IMG/VR virus record: IMGVR_UViG_3300035654_000005
Length of the DNA: 64,000 nucleotides
Reading direction: 5' to 3' (one strand)
From: an uncultured virus (IMG/VR IMGVR_UViG_3300035654_000005)
Lineage: Duplodnaviria > Heunggongvirae > Uroviricota > Caudoviricetes
Shown here piece after piece: positions 12,141-62,504 of the stretch. The translations under genes were made by a program, and so were the position numbers. Below the pieces are notes generated by a model. It made no database searches and was not told the DNA's origin. It worked only from the letters and a program-made list of their open reading frames with translations. Each line of letters starts with the position of its first letter. Position 1 is the stretch's first letter.

Positions 12141-13762
<1,622 letters not shown>

Positions 13763-13783: not shown

Positions 13784-14164
13784 ATGGCAAAAGTACAAAA
13801 ACAATCAGAGCGTGGTGCTAACATTCTTAATAGTCCAGAAGAACGTAAAAAGTTCAAATCTGCTCTGTCTACAATCACACATTACTTCCAACAAATCGAC
13901 GATGCTAAAGAGTCAGTTAAAGAAACCGTAGCAGACATTGCTGACCAGTATGGCGTTGACAAGAAACACGTTCGTAAATTAGCTGCCACTATGTTCAAAC
14001 ACAACTACGAATCACTTCAAGAGGAAAACAAACACTTTGAAGCGTTGTACGAAATTGTGATTGAAGGTAAGTTGCGCGGTGATGGTGATCCGCTAGCAGC
14101 AGCTCTGTTAGCAGATGAACCTGATGACGATGCAAGTAACGACAACAAGGATTTGTCAGAATAA
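13784..14164 (+). CDS. dsDNA-binding protein (T4 DsbA-like)
   Basis: IDDAKESVKE...YGVDKKHVRKLA.TMFK.NY...FEALYE pattern matches T4-type DsbA proteins. Confidence 0.72.
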   Translation: MAKVQKQSERGANILNSPEERKKFKSALSTITHYFQQIDDAKESVKETVADIADQYGVDKKHVRKLAATMFKHNYESLQEENKHFEALYEIVIEGKLRGDGDPLAAALLADEPDDDASNDNKDLSE

Positions 14165-14165
14165 T

Positions 14166-14192
14166 AAAAAAGCCCGCTAAGCGGGCTTTTTT
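14166..14192. terminator. Bidirectional rho-independent terminator
   Basis: A6-GCCCGC-TAA-GCGGGC-T6 between convergent genes. Confidence 0.92.
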
Positions 14193-14193
14193 A

Positions 14194-16683
14194 TTATAGC
14201 ATCTTATATGTTCCGGTCAGTATATATCCACCAAACGGATTAGAGCCTTGTGACGTAATATTCATAAAGGTAGCTACATATCGTTCCAATGGTTGAACTA
14301 CCAGAGGAGTAGTCTCATTCAACACATCAAATGTTACGGTTTTTGCTACGGTAGTATCTCCGAAAATAGAAACGATCGCTACCTCACCCAATTTACCGCC
14401 TATAACTTGTATATCCAACGCTGTACCCACAATCGGAATTAACGATATAGGAGCAAACTGTTGTCCAAGATCAACGTCAAGAGTAGCTCTAGGATCACCG
14501 CCTGTGTCATAATCCACAGATAGGGTTGTGTTTGTTGTTGTTGGTAATAGAGCTAGAGTGCCACTCTGAGCTGGTAGTGTGTATGAACGAGTAGTACCCG
14601 TTGGGATAAATGTCGTATCAAACTCAAATCGTTTAGTTGAATCAGTTGGATCTACAGCAAAAGTTACGGTCGTATTATCTGTACTCAACATAATGCTATT
14701 TGAGTCACTATCAGCAGTTACGTGGAATGCCACCTGGCTAGCATTGATATCTAATATCGATTGAGCTGATCCAGTTCCTTCATTATACGATGTCGTTAAT
14801 TTTACTTGTGAATTTAGAGTCGCTTGTCGAATATAACCAAACCCTGGGTTCATGAACATATCGTGGCGTGCTAGTATAGCATTTTCATTAGCTGTGTCGA
14901 CTATTGTGCGAGCTGTGGATATGGATTGGTTTTGCGCATCTATTGCGTCAGTACTGTTGAACGATACTACAGGTGTATGTGAATCTAAAATAAACGATAC
15001 TAATTGTGTGTTAGAATTAGCGTCAAGTGTATATGATGATACCAACCCACCTGCATCATCAGCTGTACTGACAATACTTACTTGAGTTGGATCGTTTTGA
15101 ACAGCTTGTGCGTCAAAACCACCTCCAGATATATCACTCAACAATGCTAACGTACCATTTTGGTTAGGCATCGTATACGTTCTCGTAGTGGAAGGTGAAA
15201 TGGTAGATGCGTCAAATGTGTATTTTTTGGTTACGTTAGTTGAATCTGTGCCCGACAACTGACCATGTATAGTCAATGTGTTTGAAGCAAAATCTCCTAA
15301 AATTAACGGAGTATCTGTAGGTGTAATGTCAACGTACAATTTGCTAACTACGTTGCCGGAATTAGTAAGCGGCCCTGCATTGAAACCCAATATAATACTA
15401 TTTTGCAATTCGCCCGTCAATCCACCTGCAGTATTTGCTCCGATTACAACAGACTGGAATCCTCTAGTTGCATTGTTTGCTGCATACGTACCAATTGCTA
15501 CTGTATTAGTACTGTTTGTAACAGCAGCAGATAAAGCATACTGACCGATGGCAATGTTGTCACCTCCAGTAGTAAGTCCCGCTAACGCACCGGTACCAAT
15601 AGCAATATTCTCCAAACTACCTACGGTAGCTCCTTGCAATGCATTTTTACCGATAGCTACGTTATCTGTACCTAATATACCAGCGCCTAATCCCAATGCT
15701 GTGTGGCCAGCATCCGTAATTCCTATCAGATCAGATCCACCAGGTGTGGCTACACCTGCTATAACAGGATTAAAGAATACAGATTTAGGAGTTAATGCAA
15801 ATGCTATAACTTGTGTTTGTCCGGTAGAGGTGTCTGTTAGAGCACCATTCGAACCAACGTATAGAGGTGCACCAACTGTAGTCCAGTTCCAACCTTGATT
15901 TTCAACAACACCTTGTGTGTAAATTGTAGTATAGTCACCCGCAACAACATTTCGACTGATAATACCATACACTGTAGAGCCTATATCATAGGAATCAGCA
16001 GTTATAAACTTGCTAAAATCGCTCAGTTTTACAACAGTAAATGCTGGGATAGTTTGTTGAGCCTCTGCTTCTAATACTGTTGCTGCTAATTTAAGCTCTG
16101 AGCTATTAGTAACACCAGCGATTCCTGTTGTTTCTGTTGTAAAGAACGTGTCGTTCGAACGTTTTGTTGGTAATCCAAATGTATCAAATACAATGTAGCC
16201 TGATAAACTGGAGTTTTGATTACCAACTTGAGTACCAGTAAACAATGGCGAACTTATGCTAACGCTTGAAAAACTACCATTGTAACGGGCGGCGATTACA
16301 CGAATTACTCTAACCCATCTAGATCCAGAGGCACGCCAGACGTAACCCACTGTATTCGTAGTATCAAACCAGTATTGGCCATTCGCTGGTGTTGCTGGAG
16401 CAGTTGCACCGATTGATGGAGCTAATGTTGTTGACCCACGAGTTAGAACACCAGTTTTGATATTAATATCCCAGTACAACCAGTAGTTAGTACTTGGGGT
16501 AAAAGGCCCAGGCCACGCGGAATTTACACTGACGCGTTCTGTTACAGTATAGTTAGCGTCTTTATCAGCAAACGTCAGTACTATTGGTGTTGTCGGATTT
16601 ACTGCTAAATTTACGGAGCCACTTGAAGCTACTAAAAAGCCTGTTTGTGCTGTAACGATACCTTGTCTAAATGGGAGTCTCAT
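14194..16683 (-). CDS. Tail fibre-like virion protein
   Basis: Repeated N.AIG..AL (YadA-head-like) motifs, duplicated TTRxYTxPxQxGTLALL motif, late promoter at 16711-16717. Confidence 0.7.
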   Translation of the reverse strand: MRLPFRQGIVTAQTGFLVASSGSVNLAVNPTTPIVLTFADKDANYTVTERVSVNSAWPGPFTPSTNYWLYWDINIKTGVLTRGSTTLAPSIGATAPATPANGQYWFDTTNTVGYVWRASGSRWVRVIRVIAARYNGSFSSVSISSPLFTGTQVGNQNSSLSGYIVFDTFGLPTKRSNDTFFTTETTGIAGVTNSSELKLAATVLEAEAQQTIPAFTVVKLSDFSKFITADSYDIGSTVYGIISRNVVAGDYTTIYTQGVVENQGWNWTTVGAPLYVGSNGALTDTSTGQTQVIAFALTPKSVFFNPVIAGVATPGGSDLIGITDAGHTALGLGAGILGTDNVAIGKNALQGATVGSLENIAIGTGALAGLTTGGDNIAIGQYALSAAVTNSTNTVAIGTYAANNATRGFQSVVIGANTAGGLTGELQNSIILGFNAGPLTNSGNVVSKLYVDITPTDTPLILGDFASNTLTIHGQLSGTDSTNVTKKYTFDASTISPSTTRTYTMPNQNGTLALLSDISGGGFDAQAVQNDPTQVSIVSTADDAGGLVSSYTLDANSNTQLVSFILDSHTPVVSFNSTDAIDAQNQSISTARTIVDTANENAILARHDMFMNPGFGYIRQATLNSQVKLTTSYNEGTGSAQSILDINASQVAFHVTADSDSNSIMLSTDNTTVTFAVDPTDSTKRFEFDTTFIPTGTTRSYTLPAQSGTLALLPTTTNTTLSVDYDTGGDPRATLDVDLGQQFAPISLIPIVGTALDIQVIGGKLGEVAIVSIFGDTTVAKTVTFDVLNETTPLVVQPLERYVATFMNITSQGSNPFGGYILTGTYKML

Positions 16684-16844: not shown

Positions 16845-18515
16845 ATGAGTTACATATCAGCCGTCACTATGAACGATAATGTTATTGTTTATGAACGTGA
16901 TGCAGAAAATAAACGAATTCAGCAAGTGTACAAAGCACCGTACTACTTTTATGTAGATGATCCCGATGGTGAATATAATACCATATTCGGTACAAAGGTG
17001 TCCAAACTGACGTTTAAAAACGGCCGAGATTACTACGGTACTAGAAAGTCGTGTAAAGAATCAGGAATACAAACGTGGGAATCTGACATCCCCCCTGAGA
17101 TTCGTGTACTGTCGAACTTCTACTACAACAAACCGGCGATGAAATTGAACATCACGTTTTGGGATATTGAGGTCGATTACAATCTCGAAATGGGTTTCTC
17201 ATCTCCAAAGTATCCGTACGCTCCAATTAACTCTGTATCGTTGTTTCATCAACATCGAGATGAGATGGTTATCTTGTGCGTACCACCTCCTGGTCAACCA
17301 TGGACTGCTGAAACTCTAATGGAAGAAGTGCACGCCGCACACCCACTACCGACTGAATATAAAACTATAATTAAAGTGTTTCCAGACGAACGAGAGTTAT
17401 TGCTTGAGTTCTTAGATCAGATTGAAGATACTGATTTGTTATCTGGTTGGAACAGTGACTTCTTCGACTTACCATATACAACTAAGCGTATCGAACGTAC
17501 ACTGGGTTCAACTTTTGTTAAGCGACTGTCGTTCACAGGAGCACAAGCTCCACAATGGAATGAGGTTGAGTTTAAAAAACAAATCAATCTAGTAGTTAAT
17601 CTATACGGTCGTATGTCACTCGACTATATGCAACTGTTCCGTAAGTATGAACCAGGCGAACGTCACTCATATAAGTTAGCTTCGATCGAAGAGGAAGTTG
17701 GACTAAATCTACCTAAACTCAACTATCAAGGTTCTTTGCATGAGTTGTATCACCAAGACTTTCCGTTCTTTGTACGATACAACATGCGAGATAGTGAAAT
17801 TCTCCGTGGATTCGAACTAACACTAGGCTACGTTGATGTAGCCTCACAAATGTACCATATTTCATGCGGGCAGGCATCACACGTTCAAGGTACATTGAAG
17901 CTCGCTGAGTTGGCAATCGTAAACTACTGCCACCACGTACTGAAGCAAGTCGTACCTAACATTGAACGTCCTGATGTAGATCGAAAGATCGATGGTGCGT
18001 TTGTATTACTGCCACAAATTGGTATGCACGAACAGATTGGTTCTATTGATATTACATCACTGTATCCAACAGCGATACGCAGCGTTAACATTTCTCCTGA
18101 GATGATCGTTGGACAGTTTACGGCTACGAGTGAAGCTCACGTCGGTGTCATTAATGGAACAGATGAACTATTCTTGTTTGAATATGATAACGAAACAACA
18201 GAAACTAAATCTGGAGCGGAATGGAAGCAACACTTGATAGATAATAAGTGGAGTATCAGTGGATACGGCACGGTATTTTCTCAGGAAAAACAAGGAATTA
18301 TACCAGCTGTGTTATCCGATTGGTTTGCTACTCGTAAAAAATATCAAAACGACAAAAAGACTGCCAATGCTGCCGCTGTAGAAATATTGAAAAAGTATAT
18401 GTCAGAAGAAGAGGCAATTAAAATGGTATCTCGAGCAGTTACAGAGATCTCAGAAGTACTAACCGAAACATCAGCGTACGATGATACTGATGAAGAAGAA
18501 TTTGACGAGTTTTAA
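16845..18515 (+). CDS. DNA polymerase family B, N-terminal subunit (exonuclease plus palm motif A; gp43A-like)
   Basis: ExoI WDIEV, ExoII GWNSDFFD, ExoIII YNMRD, motif A DITSLYP, GIIP...W...RK; ends in acidic tail. Confidence 0.93.
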   Translation: MSYISAVTMNDNVIVYERDAENKRIQQVYKAPYYFYVDDPDGEYNTIFGTKVSKLTFKNGRDYYGTRKSCKESGIQTWESDIPPEIRVLSNFYYNKPAMKLNITFWDIEVDYNLEMGFSSPKYPYAPINSVSLFHQHRDEMVILCVPPPGQPWTAETLMEEVHAAHPLPTEYKTIIKVFPDERELLLEFLDQIEDTDLLSGWNSDFFDLPYTTKRIERTLGSTFVKRLSFTGAQAPQWNEVEFKKQINLVVNLYGRMSLDYMQLFRKYEPGERHSYKLASIEEEVGLNLPKLNYQGSLHELYHQDFPFFVRYNMRDSEILRGFELTLGYVDVASQMYHISCGQASHVQGTLKLAELAIVNYCHHVLKQVVPNIERPDVDRKIDGAFVLLPQIGMHEQIGSIDITSLYPTAIRSVNISPEMIVGQFTATSEAHVGVINGTDELFLFEYDNETTETKSGAEWKQHLIDNKWSISGYGTVFSQEKQGIIPAVLSDWFATRKKYQNDKKTANAAAVEILKKYMSEEEAIKMVSRAVTEISEVLTETSAYDDTDEEEFDEF

Positions 18516-18523
18516 GAGAACAT

Positions 18524-19705
18524 ATGGTTACAATTGATGGCGTAAAAATGAGCGACGATGATGCGTTGCTATATCAAAAATACATCCAACAAGCGGCGTA
18601 TGCTGACAGGTTGCAGTATGTGTTTAAGATTAAACTAAACAGTCTATATGGTGCAATGAGTAACTTATATTTTAGATTCTACGATCTGCGGATGGGTGAA
18701 TCCACTACTGCTACTGGTAGAGCTATTCTACTCCACCAATGTCGCAAAGTAAGTGAATTATTAGATGGCAACTACAACGTCGACTTCCCACTGTATGAAA
18801 CACCTAAAGAGTGTATCGAAAAAGGTATAGATGTTAAATTTGCTCTACATGGTGATTACTTTAACTCTAAACACCAGAGTGATTCCGTTGTTTATGGTGA
18901 TACCGACTCTACTTACTTCAAGACTCACCAAAAAACTACAGCGGAAGCTATCGTGGTTGCTGATTATATTGGCGAACAAGTAAATAACTCATACGGTGAT
19001 TTTATGCGTTCTCACTTCTTATGCACACCTGGTTTCGATAATCTGGTTAAAGCTGCTCGTGAGATTGTTAGCGATAACGGCATATTCGTTCAGAAGAAGC
19101 GTTATATGTTACACTTACGCGATGTCGACGGTAAGACTGTTGATAAGATGAAGGTGATGGGTCTTGATACCAAAAAGACTATCCTACCTAAAGAAATCTC
19201 CCTCAAGCTAAATGCATTTATGGAAGACTGGTTGAAAGGTAAGGAGTGGGATCGCGTAGCTGAAGAGATCGTTGCCTACAAAGACTTTTTGATACATAAT
19301 GGCTTAATTATTAAATACGGGTTACCAACCGGTGTTAATAATGTAGACCAATACACAGCTTTATACCTAAAAGAAGGTATGAAAGCACGATTACCAGGTG
19401 GTGTTGCAGCCGCCATTCACTATAATCAGTGTCTTGCAGAGTTTGGCGACAAGATCAGCATACCTATTACATCAGGTATGAAGATCAAGAAGTTTTATCT
19501 TAAACGCCCACGAGGCAAATTTAAAACTATTGCTTTACCGACAGACTTAGATGAAATCCCACCATGGTTTGCTGACTTTGAGATTGACAATCAGGCCATG
19601 ATTACGAGACTTGTGGATAAACCCGTAAGTAATATAATTAAAGCGGTAGGAAAACTACCACCCACCAAACAAACTTTACTAGACACTAAGTTAGTGAGGT
19701 ATTGA
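18524..19705 (+). CDS. DNA polymerase family B, C-terminal subunit (gp43B-like)
   Basis: Motif B KIKLNSLYG, TTATGR, motif C YGDTDS, KKRY, KVMGL. Confidence 0.93.
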   Translation: MVTIDGVKMSDDDALLYQKYIQQAAYADRLQYVFKIKLNSLYGAMSNLYFRFYDLRMGESTTATGRAILLHQCRKVSELLDGNYNVDFPLYETPKECIEKGIDVKFALHGDYFNSKHQSDSVVYGDTDSTYFKTHQKTTAEAIVVADYIGEQVNNSYGDFMRSHFLCTPGFDNLVKAAREIVSDNGIFVQKKRYMLHLRDVDGKTVDKMKVMGLDTKKTILPKEISLKLNAFMEDWLKGKEWDRVAEEIVAYKDFLIHNGLIIKYGLPTGVNNVDQYTALYLKEGMKARLPGGVAAAIHYNQCLAEFGDKISIPITSGMKIKKFYLKRPRGKFKTIALPTDLDEIPPWFADFEIDNQAMITRLVDKPVSNIIKAVGKLPPTKQTLLDTKLVRY

Positions 19706-29140: not shown

Positions 29141-29155
29141 TTATTACTGATCAAT

Positions 29156-29182
29156 AAAAAAGCCCGCAATGCGGGCTTTTTT
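29156..29182. terminator. Bidirectional rho-independent terminator
   Basis: A6-GCCCGC-AAT-GCGGGC-T6; identical to 14166-14192 except the loop. Confidence 0.92.
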
Positions 29183-29197
29183 ATTGTCTAACAGATG

Positions 29198-53090: not shown

Positions 53091-54170
53091 ATGGCTAATA
53101 TCATAGTCAAGCCGATTGGCTCGCTTGCACAGCTAGTCAAAGCGGCTAGTTTTACAGATATTCACTGGGGTTGTAAGTCGAACTCTGAACAACACAACGA
53201 GGATTGTTTAAGCTTCATTCGTTGGTTTTGTGAACAAGTACGCAACGATCCAGAGATCGACCACGTTATTTTTATGGGAGATTGGTTCGAAAACCGATCT
53301 GCTGTGAACATATCAACGATGAACTACTCGTATCTTGGTGCTAAGCTCTTAAATGAGCTTGGTATTCCAATTTACTTTATTGTAGGCAACCACGATCTAT
53401 ACCATCGTCATACCCGAGACATTCATTCTGTGGTGAACTTTCAAGAGTTCTCCAACTTTGTAATCGTAGATGATCCAATGTTGATTGAGCGTATTGGTGA
53501 TGGTTCTATTTTATCGCCGTATTTGTTCCATTCAGAATATCCTGAACTAGCGAAATTCTTAAACTACAAAACGTGGTGGGGACATTTCGAATTTAAGGGA
53601 TTTGTGATCACAGGATACAATGTACGTATGCCGACTGGACCAGATGCTGCAAATTTCGCTGGACCTGATCGTATTTTTTCTGGACACTTCCACAAGCGAC
53701 AAACTTCTGAAAATATTGTGTATATTGGCAACACCTTCCCGACTAGCTTTGGTGATGTGGGTGACTCAAATCGCGGTATGTGTGTCTACGAGCACAACGG
53801 AAACAATTTAACATTTATCGATTGGCCAGATGCACCTATGTATGTACATGCTAACTTAACAGAATTAATGGACGAGAGTCTTATATTACCGAGCGGAGCT
53901 CGTGTCAAATGTGTCGTAGATTTGCCTATTAGCTTTGAAGAGGGCAGTGTAATTAAGGCAACTTATCTACAGGATTACAGCTTGCGTGAATTTTCTCTTG
54001 AAGAATCCAACGATTTGCAAGAGGCCGTAGCTGATACAGATACTAATATTCAAGAGATGGTCGTAAAAGGTCACAGCGTAGATGAGATGGTAGTACACAT
54101 GTTGAACGATATCAAACACGATAAAATCGACAACGAAATTCTCGTCAAACAATATCAACTTTTAGGTTAA
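53091..54170 (+). CDS. Recombination nuclease (gp47, Mre11/SbcD-like)
   Basis: TDIHWG, MGDWF, VGNHD, GHFE, SGHFH phosphoesterase motifs. Confidence 0.93.
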   Translation: MANIIVKPIGSLAQLVKAASFTDIHWGCKSNSEQHNEDCLSFIRWFCEQVRNDPEIDHVIFMGDWFENRSAVNISTMNYSYLGAKLLNELGIPIYFIVGNHDLYHRHTRDIHSVVNFQEFSNFVIVDDPMLIERIGDGSILSPYLFHSEYPELAKFLNYKTWWGHFEFKGFVITGYNVRMPTGPDAANFAGPDRIFSGHFHKRQTSENIVYIGNTFPTSFGDVGDSNRGMCVYEHNGNNLTFIDWPDAPMYVHANLTELMDESLILPSGARVKCVVDLPISFEEGSVIKATYLQDYSLREFSLEESNDLQEAVADTDTNIQEMVVKGHSVDEMVVHMLNDIKHDKIDNEILVKQYQLLG

Positions 54171-54172
54171 TT

Positions 54173-55985
54173 ATGAAGATCACACTAGGCACACTTACAA
54201 TGCGTAACTTTATGAGTTACGGAAACAACGATACGGTTATTGATTTTAAACGTCCAGGTACTACTTTAATTGTAGGTGAGGACTTAGATAATACAACTGA
54301 CGGTAAATCTGCCAATGGTACAGGTAAATCAACTATAGTAAACGCTGTTTCATATGCTTTGTACGATAAAGCTGTATCCAACATATCGAAAGATAAGTTA
54401 GTAAACAACATCAACAAGAAAAATCTAATGGTATCTTTAGATTACACCGTAGGTGAAGATGCATATCGTGTGGTTCGTGAGCGTAAAACAAAAGTTGGAC
54501 CTGAAGGTAACAAAGTCCACTTTTACAAAAATGGCGTAGATGCAACACGTAGTGCTGCAGAAACAAACCGAGATATTGAAGCTAGTTTAGGGATCCCTCA
54601 CGAATTATTCTCACGAATCATTGTATTCTCTGCATCCCACGTACCTTTCTTAGATCTACCAGCCACTTCACAGGTTGGTCCAAACCAAAAAGACTTCATT
54701 GAGGAGCTATTTGGTCTAACAGCACTGAGTCAAAAAGCTGAACTGTTAAAAGCTATCATGAAAGATGGTAGGTCAGCTATTGAAACTAAGCGCGTAGCAA
54801 TTCAAGCGGTTGAAGGTGAGCATGACCGCCACAAGGTCCAAATTGAAAATGCAGTTAAGCGCGTAATGAGTTGGGAAGAGACTAATAAACAATCAATTCA
54901 AACTCTAAAAGATAAAATTGTGTGGGCAGATGGTATTGATGTGAAGGAGCAACAACGGTTGCACACTCGTGCTGATGAAATTAGATCACAATCGAAAGAC
55001 AAAAAACGTACACTTGATACGCTAACCACAGAGATTGCTCAACTAACACGTGACAAACAGACGAAGGTTGGTGAACTATCCCAGCTCAACGACGCTACGT
55101 GTCCTTACTGCAAGCAACACTACGATTCATCAGAAGAGCACAAAAAGCACGTATCCGATGCAGTGAGTGAAGCAGAAAGCAAGCTGGCTGAATTTACATC
55201 ACAACAGCAGACCATTCGCGAAGAGTGGAATGCTCTGAAAGATGAGTTAGACACAGTCGAATCTAGTATTACTGTGTCCAATATTGCAGAGTTGCAAAAC
55301 ATTGTAAGTCAGCGAGACTTATCTACTCAGAAGATCGCTGATATGGAGGCTGCTGTAAATCCATACTTAGATCCTCTGGATGAGTTGGAAAATATGAAGT
55401 TACCAGAAATTAATTATGATGAGATTGAAGCTCTGACTAAAACGCTAGAACACCAAGAATTCTTACTCAAATTATTGACTAAGAAGGACAGCTTTGTTCG
55501 TAAGGCACTGCTTGATAAGAGTTTACCGTACTTAAATTCACAATTGCGTATATACTTGAATGCACTTGGATTGCCTCATAATGTGGTGTTTACGCATGAG
55601 ATGATAGCAGAGATTTCAAGGTTTGGTACATCGTTGGACTTCGGTAATCTATCGAATGGTCAGCGAGNNNNNNNNNNGTCAGCGAGCACGTGTTAACATC
55701 GCGTTATCGTTTGCGTTTAGAAATGTATTACAGAATTTACACTCAACTATCAACTTCTGTATGTTAGATGAAGTCTTTGACTTTGGACTAGATACAGTTG
55801 GTGTGCAATTAGCTACAAAATTAGTAAAACACAAGACTAGAGAAGAAGGCTTATCTATGTTTGTGATCTCACACCGAGATGAAGTGTTCTCGTCATTTGA
55901 CAGTGTATTAACAGTACATTACAGTAAAGGATTCTCGACAATCGTGAATCCGACGAGTACTGCGGTGGAGAGTGCTGAGGAATAA
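54173..55985 (+). CDS. Recombination ATPase (gp46, Rad50/SbcC-like), across gap 55668-55677
   Basis: NFMSYG, Walker A NGTGKS, coiled coil with CPYC hook, LSNGQR signature, LDE, ISH; duplicated gap flanks merge in frame. Confidence 0.93.
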
Positions 55986-56023: not shown

Positions 56024-56506
56024 ATGGCTATATTTCTAGGTGTTGATCAATCATACACTTCATGTGCATTCGTTGTATCGAATGCCGATTGTGTTATGCT
56101 GGATGTTGGTATTATTAAAACCAGCAAAACTGAAGATATATTCGTGAGAGCTTTATATATCGCTGAACAACTTAACTTGTTAATCGACAAGTATGATGTT
56201 ACTGACTTTCACATCGAAGGATTAGCGTTTGCTATGAGAGGTGATGCTACTCGTGATTTGGCTGGACTATTGTTTACCATCATCACTACGACTATGACTA
56301 AACATCCAGATGTTACGCGCAGAATTGTCGCTCCTACTTCGTTAAAGAAGATTGCTACTGGATCAGGTAAAGCTGATAAGCAGCAAATGATCGAAGCCCT
56401 TCCAGCTGGTGTACGAGAAGTCTTCAACACCAAAGGATACAAGAAAACTACTGGTCTTACGGACGTAGCCGATGCTTATTGGTTGTCCACTTATCGGCCA
56501 GTATAA
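56024..56506 (+). CDS. RuvC-like Holliday junction resolvase
   Basis: LGVDQS, IEG, PTSLKK.ATG.GKADK, D.ADAY acidic motifs. Confidence 0.85.
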   Translation: MAIFLGVDQSYTSCAFVVSNADCVMLDVGIIKTSKTEDIFVRALYIAEQLNLLIDKYDVTDFHIEGLAFAMRGDATRDLAGLLFTIITTTMTKHPDVTRRIVAPTSLKKIATGSGKADKQQMIEALPAGVREVFNTKGYKKTTGLTDVADAYWLSTYRPV

Positions 56507-56509
56507 ATA
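56502..56509 (+). promoter_or_regulatory. T4-type late promoter reading into a non-coding region
   Basis: TATAAATA overlapping the ruvC-like stop; no ORF of 60 aa or more follows on this strand. Confidence 0.6.
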
Positions 56510-56634
56510 AAATTATAATATAACATATAGAACCGAATTCAACACAACCTACCTACACAAATCAAGAAGCGAATTAATTAAAAACCAAATCTGAAACAAT
56601 CAGTATAAAATNNNNNNNNNNGTATAAAATAGAA

Positions 56635-56865
56635 ACGCAGCCATTCAAACCCTAACTGTTGGCGGAGTAGGAACCCACGTCGTCGAACCGATTGTGTCAA
56701 GCCTTGTAGAATGATGTCTACAGAAGTTTCTCGTAAAGCCACTCGAGATCAGCCTACTTGGGAGTAGTCAACTCTTGTGCTGCTATATCGTTATACAACT
56801 TTTTTTGGACTTTGGTACGAATCTATTATGATTCCGAGGGGTTTGAAGTTTTTTAGCCCCCATGC
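56635..56865 (+). ncRNA. Candidate structured non-coding RNA or structured origin element
   Basis: 9-bp long-range helix 56644-56652/56839-56847 enclosing five short stems; ORF-free; strand inferred from upstream promoter. Confidence 0.5.
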
Positions 56866-56894
56866 AGAAAATCAAGAACAAAACCAAAAGCACT

Positions 56895-56940
56895 AATATT
56901 ATAGATTATGTGAGCGCAGTGAAACATAATCTATAATATT
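56895..56940. repeat. Perfect 17-bp inverted repeat with 12-nt loop
   Basis: AATATTATAGATTATGT-GAGCGCAGTGAA-ACATAATCTATAATATT. Confidence 0.95.
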
Positions 56941-56987
56941 CTTATTGAACGTAGTGAAATGAGCATCCTTATAATCGCTTAAGAAAA

Positions 56988-57176
56988 CTAGTATTGTGGA
57001 TGTGGATTTTTACCTTCAGCTTCTAATCTCTTTGCTAAGAAATTATCCATTAAGTCACGTTCTGCTGGTGTTAACTCAAACATATCGTGATATTGAATGG
57101 AGCCTCGCATAAAATATACTAGTTGTATGATGCCTTGTATTAAGGCTTCACTTTCCTTCTTCAACCTAGAGAACAT
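56988..57176 (-). CDS. Small baseplate hub/tail assembly protein (gp51-like); possibly the C-terminal part of a frameshift product
   Basis: L.YFMRG.I.Y......P.ER motif; frame stays open upstream into the T8 run at the end of the gp26-like gene. Confidence 0.7.
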   Translation of the reverse strand: MFSRLKKESEALIQGIIQLVYFMRGSIQYHDMFELTPAERDLMDNFLAKRLEAEGKNPHPQY

Positions 57177-57211
57177 CCTTTGGATATCCTCAGTTGAACC
57201 GTTCTTCAGCG

Positions 57212-58006
57212 TTATGAAAAAAAACTTACTGGGTTCGTACTGAACTCAATATCGATTAGTTCCGCACAATCCTTACATTTGGTGCTGTGTTTCATTGAAG
57301 CACCCCAGTCACCCAGTTGAGTCAATGCATCAGTCAACATACGAATATGACCAGCAGATACTACACCAATCCATTCACGAATTTGTTCTTTATCACTGAT
57401 TCCGTCCACAGAATCGATCACATCTACCAATACAGCGGTAATACTGGTCTTGAGATCTTCTAAGCTTGGGATACTATCAGATAAATCTACGTCTTGATTT
57501 AGCGACAACATCGCACCAAATGTGGTTGGTTTAAGTTTAACTAGTTGATCTGTTGGCAATTGAACAGAGAAAATATCTGCCATTGTTGTTGGATCGATTT
57601 GTTTAGATGCACGAACGATTGGTTGTAAACCGACTTCATACGTGTGTTCTTTTCCATCTTTACATCCGTGATTGTATGACAACTGTAATGTTGGACCATA
57701 TGTTACCATACGTAGACACACCATTAAGAAATCAACATCCTTTGACAACAATGCTTTCGCATCTAGTACTTGTGGAATACAGCGAGCAAATACATCAACA
57801 ACGCCTTGTCCCGTGAACAACATGTCTGGTGACTTGAATACTAGCTCATCCATGGCAGTCATCGGTTTAACGTGCACTTCACCGTTCTTCACATCATCAC
57901 GAAGTTCACCATGTGTGTAAAATAGTCCTTGAGATGGTAACTTAAACGTCTCACCTGGAAGGACAGCCTTTCTAAGCAATGGATTGATTACTATGTTTTC
58001 TTCCAT
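57212..58006 (-). CDS. Baseplate hub assembly / tail assembly chaperone (gp26-like)
   Basis: LPSQG.FY, V.PMTA.DE...K.PD.L, D.D.L...LR..TYG, C-terminal CKDC and NP..FF; TATAAATA at 58037-58044. Confidence 0.82.
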   Translation of the reverse strand: MEENIVINPLLRKAVLPGETFKLPSQGLFYTHGELRDDVKNGEVHVKPMTAMDELVFKSPDMLFTGQGVVDVFARCIPQVLDAKALLSKDVDFLMVCLRMVTYGPTLQLSYNHGCKDGKEHTYEVGLQPIVRASKQIDPTTMADIFSVQLPTDQLVKLKPTTFGAMLSLNQDVDLSDSIPSLEDLKTSITAVLVDVIDSVDGISDKEQIREWIGVVSAGHIRMLTDALTQLGDWGASMKHSTKCKDCAELIDIEFSTNPVSFFS

Positions 58007-60410: not shown

Positions 60411-62048
60411 ATGACATCAGCTAAATTTTCATCATATTTTAAAATAGTGTCGCCTAAGACACACTCAACGTCACTATCTGATAGTCAGACGATGGGTGAT
60501 CAAGGTACCTACGCAAACTACACGTGGTATCAACGGTTAATGCAGGGATCTGCTTCGCGCGTAACTCGTTATCGTGAATATGATATGATGGACAATGACG
60601 TCGAGATTGCTCGTGCATTGGACACCATCGCTGAAGAAATGGTTGGTAATGCAACTAACGAAATCAACTCATTGCAATTGGTTATAAATCCTGATAAAGT
60701 AACAAAAATTAGCTCCACGGACGTAGCTACGCTCAAATCAGCACTTAGATACTGGTCAGATATACATGACTGGGATCAACGCTTGTTTAAACTTTGCCGC
60801 GTGACTGTTAAGTACGGTGATTGTTTCTTTATCCGTCAGAAGAACACTAATAAGTGGGTATACATTCATCCGAAAGATATAGTAGCTGCAATTGTGGATG
60901 AAGAGGACGTTACCAAAATTATCGGATGGCAAATCAAAACCGATACCAAAGTAGCTAATTCTCCATACAACCAACCTGGTAGCCAATATGGCCATAATCA
61001 AACAACCAATACAGTTGATACATTACCTGCAGATCGTGTTGTACGCTTCACTCTGAACGACGACATGTCTGATTCAGCTCCATTCGGCGAATCAGTACTG
61101 CGTGCGGTATACCGTGCTCAGAAGCAAAAAGAATTACTACAGGATGCGATTATCATTTATCGTATTCAACGCGCTCCAGAACGTCGCGTATTCTACATCG
61201 ATGTGGGTAAAATGCCTCCACAACGTAGTAAATCATATCTGGAACAGATCAAAAACGAGATTCGTCAGAAGAAAGTACCAACATACGGCGGTGGTGTAGA
61301 TCAAGTTGACTCTGTATACAACCCACAAAGTATGCAAGAAGATTTCTTCTTTGCACAACGTCCTGATGGTCGCGGTTCTAAGGTTGAAACATTACCTGGT
61401 GGTCAAGGATTGGGTGAATTATCTGACTTGGAATACTTCCAAGATCAAGTATTCCGTGGTTTGCGTATTCCTACTTCATACATGAAGGAAAGTGATGGAG
61501 CACTAATCAACGATGGTAAATCTGGTATTGCATACATCCAAGAGTTGCGTTTTGCTTTGTACATTAATCGTCTACAACGCCACATTACGTCTACATTGAA
61601 TGTGGAGTTTAAACGCTTCTTACGTACTTCTGGTATTAGTTTAGATCCTGCAGCATTTGACATCAAACTATTAGATCCTGAAAACTTTGGTGTGTATCGT
61701 CAACAACAATTGGACTCTGAATTGCTTGGTACTTACCAATCTGCTGATGGTGTTGCTTCGTTATCAAAACGCTTTGCGTTGAAGAAATACTTGCAGTTGA
61801 CAGAAGAAGAGATCATCATGAACGAACGTATGAAGATGGAAGAAATGGGTATGGATCCAAATACTACTACACCAGACTTGGTTGCAATCTATTCAGCAAC
61901 ACCTGAAGGTGGTTTGGGAGCTGATATGGGTCTAGGTGGAGGCATGGTAGCAGGGGCTCAAACGCCACTACCTGCAGATCCAAACGCACCAGCAGGTACT
62001 AATCCAGAAGCAGCACAACCAGGACAAACGCCCCCAGTAGCGGCGTAA
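60411..62048 (+). CDS. Portal protein (gp20)
   Basis: IIYRIQRAPERRVFYIDVG.MP, EDFFF, VETLPGG, LRIP.SY, E.RF. Confidence 0.96.
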   Translation: MTSAKFSSYFKIVSPKTHSTSLSDSQTMGDQGTYANYTWYQRLMQGSASRVTRYREYDMMDNDVEIARALDTIAEEMVGNATNEINSLQLVINPDKVTKISSTDVATLKSALRYWSDIHDWDQRLFKLCRVTVKYGDCFFIRQKNTNKWVYIHPKDIVAAIVDEEDVTKIIGWQIKTDTKVANSPYNQPGSQYGHNQTTNTVDTLPADRVVRFTLNDDMSDSAPFGESVLRAVYRAQKQKELLQDAIIIYRIQRAPERRVFYIDVGKMPPQRSKSYLEQIKNEIRQKKVPTYGGGVDQVDSVYNPQSMQEDFFFAQRPDGRGSKVETLPGGQGLGELSDLEYFQDQVFRGLRIPTSYMKESDGALINDGKSGIAYIQELRFALYINRLQRHITSTLNVEFKRFLRTSGISLDPAAFDIKLLDPENFGVYRQQQLDSELLGTYQSADGVASLSKRFALKKYLQLTEEEIIMNERMKMEEMGMDPNTTTPDLVAIYSATPEGGLGADMGLGGGMVAGAQTPLPADPNAPAGTNPEAAQPGQTPPVAA

Positions 62049-62409: not shown

Positions 62410-62432
62410 TCTTTAACTGATTTAAGGCTACT

Positions 62433-62460
62433 AAAAAACCCAGCGAAAGCTGGGTTTTTT
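62433..62460 (+). terminator. Rho-independent terminator
   Basis: A6-CCCAGC-GAAA-GCTGGG-T6. Confidence 0.9.
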
Positions 62461-62504
62461 ATTTAAACCTATAAATACCTGATCACAACAGGAAGGGCAC
62501 AAAC

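What the first reader, a model, noticed from the sequence alone, without database searches (positions are those of the whole stretch)
56507..56870. ORF-free structured locus after ruvC: candidate undescribed phage ncRNA or primer RNA
Seen: the largest non-coding stretch in the window follows a perfect TATAAATA. An A/C-rich unstructured ~120 nt leads into a domain closed by TTCAAACCC(56644-52)/GGGTTTGAA(56839-47), containing GTTGGCG/CGTCGAAC, TGTAGA/TCTACA (56705-22), TCTCG/CGAGA (56729-48), CTACT/AGTAG (56754-67) and GAATC/GATTC (56819-34). The G-run can alternatively pair with AGCCCC (56855-60), giving two exclusive folds. I recognise no tRNA, tmRNA or intron core. Inference: a late structured RNA, or an R-loop/primer RNA of a replication origin next to the recombination genes.
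Basis: partly seen in the sequence, partly recalled or inferred. Interest (0 to 1): 0.8.

Follow-up and report, generated by a model that had tools for sequence, protein, structure and literature searches.

The report
New structured RNA family in large phages
The gene-free stretch after the phage's ruvC gene encodes a conserved, intricately folded RNA found in about two dozen uncultured large phages and matching no catalogued RNA family; what it does is not yet known.

Summary
Folding energy is no better than shuffled sequence (z +0.27), and there is no Rfam, tRNA or tmRNA match.

Comparison with relatives settles it. A covariance model built from 7 metagenomic relatives finds the element in the window (56584/56598-56762, + strand, 47 bits) and in 23 other distinct phage sequences.
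- Across these 24 sequences, 92.9% of 731 pair cells are paired, against 68.6% when shuffled.
- 23 of 33 pairs show compensatory double changes; 0 of 500 shuffles reach this.

The fold has:
- five 5' helices (P1-P5) with near-invariant loops;
- a probable 3-bp P2-loop/P5-loop kissing contact;
- a pseudoknotted 3' domain in relatives;
- a long terminal hairpin with a conserved purine-rich loop.

One is contradicted.

The RNA follows ruvC. In 7 of 16 relatives the ruvC stop codon lies inside it, so it is co-transcribed. One complete 350-kb phage genome has a second copy upstream of a NadM-like gene.

Function is unknown. My best guess is a processed, trans-acting RNA or RNP component. The origin/primer reading is unsupported, and transcription has not been shown.

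The parts
56024..56506 (+). ruvC-like Holliday-junction resolvase gene (160 aa), the upstream neighbour and probable source of the transcript
   Evidence: PF02075 E 4.4e-11; phrog_159 E 4e-25. The order gp47-gp46-ruvC then RNA is kept in 15 of 15 relatives with flanks.
56502..56509 (+). TATAAATA, a T4-type late-promoter-like motif overlapping the ruvC stop codon
   Evidence: Six of the 7 TATAAATA in the window precede gene starts. The motif is not conserved at this place in relatives.
56507..56589 (+). A-rich, G-poor leader
   Evidence: Composition A 51%, C 20%, G 8%, T 21%. Relatives have G-poor leaders of 20-190 nt, several with YAGAC repeats; the window has no such enrichment.
56590..56602 (+). 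P1 hairpin, CUG-AAACAAU-CAG
   Evidence: All 4 P1 pairs show changes on both sides across the 24 sequences. The AAACAAA loop is near-invariant.
56603..56630 (+). Window-specific insertion between P1 and the junction: two GTATAAAAT copies flanking 10 masked bases (56612-56621)
   Evidence: Relatives have only about 6 nt here.
56627..56634 (+). Conserved single-stranded junction, AAAUAGAA(AC)
   Evidence: UAGAAAC is near-invariant in the alignments.
56635..56668 (+). P2 hairpin with 9-nt loop AACCCUAAC (56648-56656; CCC at 56650-56652)
   Evidence: Six of the 8 inner pairs covary. The loop is near-invariant.
56669..56704 (+). P3: closing pairs AGG/CCU around GGAAC and an inner hairpin (56676-56696)
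   Evidence: The closing helix has 2 of 3 pairs covarying and the inner helix 5 of 5.
56705..56722 (+).
   Evidence: Three of 4 pairs covary.
56729..56748 (+). Window-specific hairpin, TCTCG...CGAGA, inserted between P4 and P5
   Evidence: Absent from relatives. No letter differences listed here in two 95-99% identical strains.
56754..56767 (+). P5 hairpin, CTACT-UGGG-AGTAG; loop GGG at 56760-56762 is the proposed kissing partner of the P2-loop CCC
   Evidence: UUGGGAG is near-invariant. For P5, 2 of 4 pairs covary. For the kissing contact: C-G in 21, 22 and 20 of 22 sequences at the three pairs, one U-A double change, one U.G, one break.
56768..56865 (+). 3' domain: hairpin GAATC/GATTC (56819-56834), CGAGGGG (56835-56841), C-run (56857-56861)
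   Evidence: Homologous to the relatives' 'hairpin + CGYGAGG'. In 14 relatives this domain forms an H-type pseudoknot (99% paired, 2 covarying pairs). The window's version is divergent.
56895..56940 (.). Terminal hairpin: 17-bp A/T-rich arms and a 12-nt loop holding GAGCGCAGUGA
   Evidence: I3. The motif occurs exactly once in the window. A hairpin with a GAGCGAAGCGA-like loop follows most of the copies read by eye, including the NadM-adjacent ones. It differs from the phage's GC-rich terminators I1, I2 and I10.
56945..56957 (+). Second, degenerate copy of the purine-rich motif (TTGAACGTAGTGA) just after the hairpin
   Evidence: Relatives have GCGNAGC at this place.
56988..57176 (-). Conserved 62-aa gene of unknown family, convergent with the RNA
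   Evidence: tblastn finds it in 76 of 80 gp51 loci. No PHROG or Pfam hit.
57212..58006 (-). gp51-like baseplate hub assembly gene
   Evidence: PF12322; phrog_150.

Best explanation
Window 56590 to about 56940 (+ strand) encodes a member of a previously uncatalogued family of structured non-coding RNAs. The family is carried by a clade of uncultured, T4-related large phages from freshwater, sediment and similar samples.

Shown:
- The 5' domain has five helices (P1-P5) kept by many compensatory substitutions, joined by near-invariant single-stranded segments: the AAACAAA loop, UAGAAAC, the ACCCUAACU loop, GGAAC, AACGAGCC, UAAAGUUGACC and the UUGGGAG loop.
- In relatives, the 3' domain forms an H-type pseudoknot.
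- A long terminal hairpin with a conserved purine-rich loop follows most of the copies read by eye (not counted).
- The element sits directly 3' of ruvC.
- One complete genome carries two copies.

Inferred:
- The P2-loop CCC pairs with the P5-loop GGG, either as a kissing contact within one molecule or between molecules.
- The RNA is transcribed by read-through from the gp47-gp46-ruvC operon. In this phage it may also be made from the late-type TATAAATA at the ruvC stop.
- It is released by processing in the G-poor leader.
- It acts in trans as a folded RNA, most likely by binding a protein as an RNP scaffold or decoy, rather than by long antisense pairing.

The partner and the biological role are unknown.
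For: Homology and structure:
- blastn of the gap against 80 related loci picked out window 56624-56674 (82% over 51 nt, E 4e-8), although flanking proteins are only about 45% identical.
- RNAalifold on 7 relatives gave 30 pairs, 16 of them with compensatory changes.
- Model R1 hits the window at 47.1-47.5 bits, E 3e-13 to 1e-10.
- On 24 distinct sequences, 92.9% of 731 cells are paired against 68.6% when shuffled. 23 of 33 pairs change on both sides. 0 of 500 shuffles reach this, and slid controls give 31-41% paired. The same picture holds on 17 sequences.

Strand: 10 G.U against 3 A.C cells.

Not coding: the spacing between invariant motifs varies by non-multiples of 3 (69-85 nt), and + frames carry stops.

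Not in a catalogue: Rfam gave 0 hits.

Co-transcription: the ruvC stop lies within P1, or between P1 and UAGAAAC, in 7 of 16 relatives.

Behaves as an independent module: the complete 350,089-bp genome G001 has two copies (85 and 101 bits). The second lies beside CoA and NAD genes. NadM-adjacent copies occur in 3 lineages.

Kissing contact: one U-A double change, one U.G, otherwise C-G.

3' pseudoknot: 99% of 98 cells paired; covarying pairs are C-G 8 / U-A 5 / U.G 1 and G-C 10 / A-U 4.

Purifying selection: two 95-99% identical strains show no listed letter differences in 56622-56773, but several substitutions and three deletions, one of 8 nt (in one strain), in 56774-56990.
Against: - No transcript has been shown. 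The only 'RNA' run covering part of the region is probably DNA, and contigs cannot show ends or strand.
- The MFE is not better than shuffles.
- The alignments used for the pair counts were fitted to the model, which inflates the paired percentage.
- The window's copy is a divergent member (47 bits). It has an insertion containing masked bases, an extra hairpin and an atypical 3' domain.
- The kissing contact rests on one compensatory event, and one sequence (L391) breaks it.
- Trans action and protein binding are inference only. No partner gene co-occurs in the flanks I examined.
- 50 of 61 related phage loci with enough sequence lack the RNA, so it is accessory.
Confidence: 0.6

Rival explanations
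1. A cis-acting element of the transcript. It could be a structured 3' UTR or intergenic module that stabilises the upstream mRNA, blocks exonucleases or insulates convergent transcription. Alternatively it could be a ligand-sensing (riboswitch-like) domain whose terminal hairpin controls read-through, into nadM for one paralogue and into antisense of the baseplate operon for the other.
For: - The element always lies directly after an ORF and overlaps the ruvC stop in 7 of 16.
- No conserved promoter of its own was found.
- In 3 lineages a copy sits 250-300 nt upstream of, and co-oriented with, a NadM-like gene, with a hairpin in between.
- The A-run plus hairpin gives a T-run on the minus strand after the 62-aa gene (read by eye).
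- The window's G-run has two exclusive partners.
Against: - The ruvC-adjacent copies (19-20 of 24) have no downstream gene on their strand.
- The terminal hairpin has a conserved loop, and in the NadM copies no U-run follows it. That is unlike an expression platform.
- The many invariant unpaired nucleotides exceed what a stabiliser needs.
- L017, a related locus where ruvC directly abuts the 62-aa gene, has only a 38-nt gap and no such RNA.
Confidence: 0.25
2. A replication origin with an R-loop or primer RNA beside the recombination genes, or another DNA-level site such as an iteron array.
For: - The position next to gp46/gp47/ruvC.
- The promoter-like TATAAATA.
- Strand-asymmetric YAGAC repeats in several relatives' leaders: L002 has 10 against 1.9 expected, and L039 has 9 against 1.7, each with 0 of 2000 shuffles reaching it.
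- GCGNAGC motifs resemble stable DNA mini-hairpins (recalled, not tested).
Against: - Helices are kept by compensatory changes with a G.U bias on one strand, which points to RNA.
- The window itself has no repeat enrichment (2 against 1.7).
- One genome has two copies in unrelated contexts.
- The element is absent from most relatives.
- I did not run a GC-skew or coverage test.
Confidence: 0.04
3. A guide or cofactor RNA for the adjacent RuvC-fold nuclease, by analogy with the omega RNAs of TnpB/IscB/IsrB or the bridge RNAs of IS110. These also overlap or abut the 3' end of their nuclease gene.
For: - The RNA directly follows ruvC, or overlaps its 3' end, in 19-20 of 24 members.
- It is large and pseudoknotted.
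Against: - The protein is a 160-aa plain RuvC resolvase (PF02075, phrog_159), with no extra domain to hold an RNA.
- There is no HEARO or other Rfam hit.
- No variable guide-like segment was identified.
- Paralogues beside a NadM-like gene have no nuclease next to them.
- L017, a related locus, keeps ruvC without the RNA.
Confidence: 0.03
4. No function: a decaying gene remnant or chance structure, or a small unannotated protein gene.
For: - The MFE z-score is near 0.
- Short ORFs of 32-54 aa exist in the gap.
- The element is absent from most relatives.
Against: - Nucleotide conservation exceeds that of the flanking proteins.
- Covariation is strong.
- Indels are not multiples of 3, and stops occur in + frames.
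- Paralogues are retained.
Confidence: 0.03

Closest known systems
Large orphan structured RNAs associated with phages and prophages (GOLLD, ROOL)
   Same: Phage-borne, large, with many helices, invariant junctions and pseudoknots. Their role is still poorly understood and they are not tied to one neighbouring gene. Loop-loop contacts could in principle be intermolecular. The cryo-EM preprint 10.1101/2024.12.08.627333 was seen only as a search listing and abstract start.
   Different: No Rfam model matches the window or the relatives. This RNA is smaller: about 280 nt of core, or about 350-400 nt with the terminal hairpin. Its motifs are different, and so far it is restricted to T4-related large phages.
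T4 stable RNAs rnaC and rnaD (species 1 and 2)
   Same: Stable small RNAs of unknown function in a T4-type phage, made by processing of a longer transcript (recalled).
   Different: Model R1 gives no hit on the T4 tRNA/rnaC/rnaD region; the best score is 3.6 bits, elsewhere in the region. The T4 RNAs lie in the tRNA cluster rather than after a resolvase gene.
Omega RNAs of TnpB/IscB/IsrB (HEARO) and IS110 bridge RNAs
   Same: A structured RNA, which may contain a pseudoknot, abutting or overlapping the end of a gene for a RuvC-fold protein.
   Different: Here the protein is a 160-aa resolvase with no other domain. There is no Rfam HEARO hit and no guide segment, and paralogues occur with no nuclease nearby. 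The papers were seen only as listings or passages.
phi29 prohead (packaging) RNA
   Same: A phage-encoded structured RNA whose loops pair with each other and covary (recalled). This window's RNA also lies in a region with structural and packaging genes: the portal gene is at 60411-62048.
   Different: No Rfam match of any kind. There is no evidence of a link to the packaging motor. T4-type phages are not known to need such an RNA (recalled).
Candidate structured RNAs catalogued from IMG/VR (Fremin et al. 2023, PMC10690425)
   Same: Same data source (IMG/VR) and the same kind of evidence (covariation in intergenic regions).
   Different: The only catalogue entry linked to RuvC that I could find is DNAVirus_908: 104 nt, 4 covarying bases, palindromic, assigned to Betaproteobacteria hosts, and lying upstream of RuvC. 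It does not fit this RNA. The catalogue's sequence files could not be read, so an unnoticed overlap cannot be excluded.

Membership tests
Any Rfam 15 family (4227 models) | A covariance-model match at the family's gathering score | tested here: not met
   There were 0 matches in the 64-kb window. In 56300-57300 at E<=10 there were only 4 chance-level matches, none over the core. There were 0 matches at E<=1 in 11 relatives, 60 kb in total.
tRNA / tmRNA | ARAGORN detection | tested here: not met
   0 genes in the window.
T4 rnaC / rnaD | Similarity of sequence and structure to the annotated T4 RNAs | tested here: not met
   Model R1 with filters off on T4 68000-75000 gave no hit over rnaC or rnaD; the best score was 3.6 bits.
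Omega RNA / HEARO (RNA-guided RuvC nucleases) | An adjacent effector of roughly 350 aa or more with a RuvC domain plus RNA-binding domains | tested here: not met
   The neighbour is 160 aa and has a RuvC domain only. The effector size threshold is recalled.
Omega RNA / HEARO (RNA-guided RuvC nucleases) | A match to the HEARO model, and a variable guide segment at one end | tested here: not met
   No Rfam hit. No hypervariable terminal segment was identified in the alignments.
Riboswitch | A co-oriented downstream gene under control of an expression platform | tested here: inconclusive
   Not met for the 19-20 ruvC-adjacent copies, where the downstream genes are convergent. Met in layout only for the 3 NadM-adjacent lineages. 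Ligand binding cannot be tested here.
Intrinsic terminator (for the 56895-56940 hairpin) | A G+C-rich stem followed by a U-run | tested here: not met
   The terminator scan did not call it. The stem is A/T-rich. The phage's clear terminators look different (I1, I2, I10). A T-rich run does follow on the minus strand in several relatives (read by eye).
T4-type R-loop origin (oriF/oriG) | A promoter plus a downstream DNA-unwinding element; origin activity | not testable with these tools
   Only a promoter-like TATAAATA is present. I ran no GC-skew or coverage test.
Protein-coding gene | A conserved open frame with indels in multiples of three | tested here: not met
   The spacing between invariant motifs was 69, 74, 76, 80, 80, 80, 83 and 85 nt in the 8 sequences examined before the script stopped, and + frames carry stops.

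The most novel reading that the evidence does not exclude
This is a new class of large functional RNA with a defined tertiary architecture (kissing loops plus a pseudoknot), kept as two specialised paralogues in some phage genomes of about 350 kb. It would act either as a catalytic or ligand-binding RNA or as a self-assembling RNA/RNP particle. One paralogue would be tied to DNA recombination and packaging (ruvC) and the other to NAD/CoA cofactor metabolism (NadM-like gene). That would make it a phage counterpart of RNAs such as pRNA, GOLLD or ROOL.
Probability: 0.2. Interest if true: 0.9.

Novelty: categorically new. Interest (0 to 1): 0.72.

Why it matters
Structured RNAs of this size, with this much covariation and this many invariant unpaired nucleotides, are rare. 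Those already understood (ribozymes, riboswitches, RNP scaffolds) each opened a field.

This one is carried by large, uncultured T4-related phages and sits at the end of the recombination operon. At least two phages appear to keep a second, diverged copy next to cofactor-metabolism genes. That suggests a role in phage physiology which protein-centred annotation misses.

The work here yields a covariance model, 24 sequences, a testable secondary structure and two testable tertiary contacts. The RNA can now be synthesised, probed, imaged and searched for in metatranscriptomes.

It also gives a practical warning. The usual single-sequence energy z-score test would have discarded a real RNA.

Tried and rejected
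- **Single-sequence folding** carried no signal.
- **Promoter and terminator scans** showed no enrichment.
- **blastn of the gap against GenBank phages**, and of a relative's RNA, gave no match.
- **Protein-seeded scans of IMG/VR** with the RuvC and gp51 proteins found no relative. The metagenome scan with a gp51 alignment is what worked.
- **Sequencing runs**: all runs laid were contigs.
  - The 'RNA?' run X6 is probably DNA and covers only 56743-56969.
  - The true RNA run X20 covers only the 62-aa gene, at under 90% likeness.
  - So there is no evidence either way on transcription, ends or strand.
- **Search for antisense targets of the invariant loops** in the 64-kb window: no exact complement, and only scattered one-mismatch hits.
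  - 9-10 bp in the window, L125 and L211;
  - split or weaker in L208, L056, L037 and L043;
  - nothing consistent in the other members, so it is not established.
- **Cultured relatives** RsoM2USA and XacN1: no hit, best 7.4 bits.
- **T4 rnaC/rnaD**: no hit.
- **L237**, which sits in a different context and shows P1/P2/P5-like motifs by eye, scores only 6.2 bits (E 3.8). Its 168-kb record gave no hit. I left it out of all counts. L037 (10.4 bits, partial) was also left out of the 24.
- **L238 and L239** are pattern matches that looked like coding sequence by eye.
- **L006** has a similar 3' pseudoknot motif by eye but gave no model hit.
- **RNAalifold on the MAFFT alignment of the 3' domain** found only 7 pairs. 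The pseudoknot was then counted on a structure I named myself.
- **Earlier findings of this scan**: nothing.
- **Literature** (search; reading): no description found.
Full report
**What is in the window.**
The window comes from a T4-related large myovirus; its own contig is 130,712 bp. It encodes:
- ribonucleotide reductase, a DnaB-like helicase and a family B DNA polymerase in two ORFs;
- gp46/gp47-like recombination nucleases;
- a T4-type portal and a prohead protease.

The finding lies between two convergent units.
- On the + strand: gp47-like (53091-54170), gp46-like (54173-55985, with a short masked run) and a 160-aa RuvC resolvase (56024-56506; PF02075, phrog_159).
- On the minus strand: a gp51-like baseplate hub gene (57212-58006; PF12322) and a 62-aa ORF (56988-57176).

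The 62-aa ORF is a real gene. tblastn finds it directly after gp51 in 76 of 80 related loci.

The gap 56507-56987 is the largest ORF-poor stretch in the window. Ten bases (56612-56621) read N.

**Checks on the single sequence.**
- Rfam gave nothing at gathering score over the whole window. At E<=10 it gave only four chance-level matches in 56300-57300.
- ARAGORN found no tRNA or tmRNA.
- The MFE of 56623-56880 is -57.1 kcal/mol, against -58.35 +/- 4.61 for 200 dinucleotide shuffles (z +0.27). The minus strand gives z -0.11.
- TATAAATA occurs 7 times. Six lie shortly upstream of gene starts in the correct orientation, so the seventh, at the ruvC stop, is a credible late-type promoter facing the gap.

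**Relatives.**
GenBank phages hold nothing similar at the DNA level, and the flanking proteins have only 23-40% identical relatives there.

A gp51 alignment retrieved 80 metagenomic loci. In 13 of them ruvC is convergent with the 62-aa gene across a gap of 310-931 nt.

blastn of the window's gap against all 80 loci picked out one segment, window 56624-56674. It is 82% identical over 51 nt in L044 (E 4e-8), with weaker hits in five others, always at the same relative position. The neighbouring RuvC proteins are only 40-54% identical (40-52% over full-length matches). A non-coding segment that outlasts its flanking proteins is the first sign of function.

**Structure and covariation.**
RNAalifold on seven relatives gave 30 pairs, 16 with compensatory changes. 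The model built from them (R1) gave these results:
- It hit 12 of 81 sources, that is the window plus the 80 loci.
- The window scores 47.1-47.5 bits at 56584/56598-56762 on the + strand, E 1e-10 to 3e-13.
- Pattern scans of IMG/VR, followed by model or nhmmer screening, added further members.

In the final alignment of 24 distinct sequences:
- 92.9% of 731 cells form standard pairs, against 68.6% after shuffling.
- 23 of 33 pairs change on both sides.
- No shuffle of 500 reaches any of the five measures.
- Sliding the 3' partners by 1-3 columns drops pairing to 31-41%.
- The 17-sequence alignment gave the same picture.

These alignments are fitted to the model, which favours the structure. 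Even so, the margin is large, and it was already present in the unfitted MAFFT alignment.

G.U cells outnumber A.C cells 10 to 3. This places the RNA on the ruvC strand.

Spacing between invariant motifs varies by non-multiples of three, and the + frames carry stops. It is therefore not a small protein gene.

**Anatomy in the window** (by homology).

| Element | Coordinates | Notes |
|---|---|---|
| P1 | 56590-56602 | CUG-AAACAAU-CAG |
| Insertion | 56603-56630 | Window-specific; holds the masked bases |
| Junction | up to 56636 | AAAUAGAAAC |
| P2 | 56635-56668 | Loop AACCCUAAC |
| P3 | 56669-56704 | Around GGAAC and an inner hairpin |
| P4 | 56705-56722 | |
| Extra hairpin | 56729-56748 | Window-specific |
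| P5 | 56754-56767 | Loop UGGG |
| 3' domain | to about 56865 | Divergent |
| Terminal hairpin | 56895-56940 | 17-bp arms; loop carries GAGCGCAGUGA |

The terminal hairpin is unlike the phage's ordinary GC-rich terminators. Its loop motif occurs exactly once in 64 kb.

- Three correspond to conserved helices: TGTAGA/TCTACA, CTACT/AGTAG and GAATC/GATTC.
- One is lineage-specific: TCTCG/CGAGA.
- One is contradicted by P2: GTTGGCG/CGTCGAAC.
- The 9-bp 'closing helix' TTCAAACCC/GGGTTTGAA overlaps P2. It is mirrored in only some relatives, so it remains open.

**Tertiary contacts.**
The P2-loop CCC and the P5-loop GGG are almost invariant. Three sequences depart from this:
- The second copy in genome G001 has UCC together with GGA, a double change in the correct antiparallel register.
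- The L373 lineage has CCU with GGG, which gives a U.G pair.
- L391 has a mismatch.

This suggests a 3-bp loop-loop contact, but it rests on one compensatory event.

In 14 relatives the 3' domain forms an H-type pseudoknot, CGYgAG/CURCG interleaved with CAGC/GCGG.
- 99% of 98 cells are paired.
- Two pairs covary: C-G 8 / U-A 5 / U.G 1, and G-C 10 / A-U 4.
- Slid controls give 14-50% paired.

**Genomic behaviour.**
- The order gp47-gp46-ruvC, then the RNA, then the convergent 62-aa gene and gp51 holds in 15 of 15 members with readable flanks.
- Among the 80 loci, 61 extend at least 450 nt past the 62-aa gene, and 11 of those have the RNA. The rest have a convergent ORF within about 60 nt. The five loci most similar to the window in gp51 all have it.
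- In 7 of 16 ruvC-adjacent members the ruvC stop codon lies inside P1 or between P1 and UAGAAAC. In five of these it is the UGA of P1's CUGAAAC.
- Most relatives show no late-promoter core (nTAAATA, as seen upstream of their gp51 genes) before the RNA.
- Read-through from ruvC is therefore the general way the RNA is made. The window's TATAAATA is an addition.

The complete 350,089-bp genome G001 has two copies. One is after ruvC (85 bits). The other scores 101 bits and lies after a 67-aa ORF, about 200 nt upstream of a gene with cytidylyltransferase-like and Nudix domains (read as NadM-like), near CoaE-like and second cytidylyltransferase-like genes.

NadM-adjacent copies occur in three lineages. 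One of them comes from the same sample as a ruvC-adjacent copy, and one further copy has an unresolved context. The other ten records searched whole are incomplete (nine are 2-68% complete fragments; the tenth, L237's record, is about 94% complete): nine show one copy each and L237's record shows none.

The element thus behaves as a self-contained RNA gene that can be duplicated. It is not simply a feature of ruvC.

**Close strains.**
Two freshwater DNA assemblies 95-99% identical to the window show no listed letter differences in 56622-56773, the conserved 5' domain. In 56774-56990 they show several substitutions and three deletions, one of 8 nt (in one of the two strains). This is consistent with stronger constraint on the core, although the numbers are small.

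**What it is not.**
- No Rfam family matches the window or the 11 relatives tested.
- It is not T4 rnaC/rnaD.
- It is absent from the two cultured jumbo phages closest by gp51 and from GenBank phages by blastn.
- The full-text searches and passages I read gave no description.
- The IMG/VR catalogue of Fremin et al. (PMC10690425) lists one RuvC-linked candidate, DNAVirus_908, with different properties. That catalogue's sequence files could not be read, so overlap with an unnamed entry cannot be excluded.

**Mechanism.**
Shown: a conserved multi-domain fold on the + strand, physical continuity with the ruvC transcript, and paralogy.

Inferred: processing out of a G-poor leader, followed by action in trans as a folded RNA.

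I favour a protein-binding or RNP role (about 0.4 within the RNA reading) for three reasons:
- The invariant nucleotides are mostly unpaired loops and junctions.
- No complementary targets were found in 64 kb.
- The copies sit in unrelated contexts.

A cis role (stabiliser, insulator or riboswitch-like control of read-through) is the main rival. Origin/primer and RuvC-guide readings are unlikely, for the reasons given under the rival explanations. Transcription itself has not been demonstrated.

Noticed in passing
L241:3884-4250 (genome handle G001, 327384-327538 and downstream): A second, higher-scoring copy of the RNA in the same complete 350-kb phage genome. It lies after a 67-aa ORF and about 200 nt upstream of a gene with cytidylyltransferase-like and Nudix domains (read as NadM-like), near CoaE-like and second cytidylyltransferase-like genes. 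Its P2 loop has UCC and its P5 loop has GGA, in place of CCC and GGG.
   Followed up: yes
Leaders of L002, L039, L044, L001 and L043 (between ruvC and P1): Strand-asymmetric YAGAC/AGAA repeats. L002 has 10 against 1.9 expected and L039 has 9 against 1.7, each with 0 of 2000 shuffles reaching it. The repeats partly overlap the 3' coding tail of ruvC in different reading frames. They are not enriched in the window. Their meaning is unknown.
   Followed up: partly
window 56988-57176 (-): A 62-aa ORF with no Pfam or PHROG family, conserved directly downstream of the gp51-like gene in 76 of 80 related loci. It is probably an unannotated baseplate-operon gene.
   Followed up: partly
window 16845-18515 and 18524-19705 (+); 12153-12962 and 12956-13762 (+): The family B DNA polymerase and the Cpn60/GroEL-like chaperonin each appear as two adjacent ORFs. 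They may be split genes, frameshifts or sequencing breaks.
   Followed up: no
window 7943, 30696, 46590, 58037, 62470, 63291: TATAAATA lies 25-70 nt upstream of gene starts in the right orientation at six places, which points to T4-type late promoters. Relatives carry nTAAATA upstream of their gp51 genes.
   Followed up: partly
window 14161-14197, 29152-29186, 62432-62461: Perfect GC-core palindromes flanked by A and T runs (AAAAAAGCCCGC / GCGGGCTTTTTT type). These are likely bidirectional intrinsic terminators, and they are clearly different from the hairpin at 56895-56940.
   Followed up: no
L232:4290-5690 (Ralstonia phage RsoM2USA, downstream of its gp51 homologue): About 1.4 kb with no annotated gene and only short ORFs. 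Model R1 does not match it.
   Followed up: partly
L384:1-2060: The RNA copy in this IMG/VR contig sits in about 2 kb with no ORF longer than 75 aa, so its genomic context is unresolved.
   Followed up: no
window about 55690 (inside the gp46-like gene) and 56612-56621: Short masked runs (N in the DNA, X in translations). The second lies inside the RNA locus, between two GTATAAAAT copies.
   Followed up: no
After the terminal hairpin in L343, L019, L365, L373 and L210: A further conserved stretch (AUGAUGCC...GGAGCUGG(C)UUAG-like) follows the terminal hairpin in several members. The RNA may therefore extend beyond the hairpin, and its 3' end is undefined.
   Followed up: no
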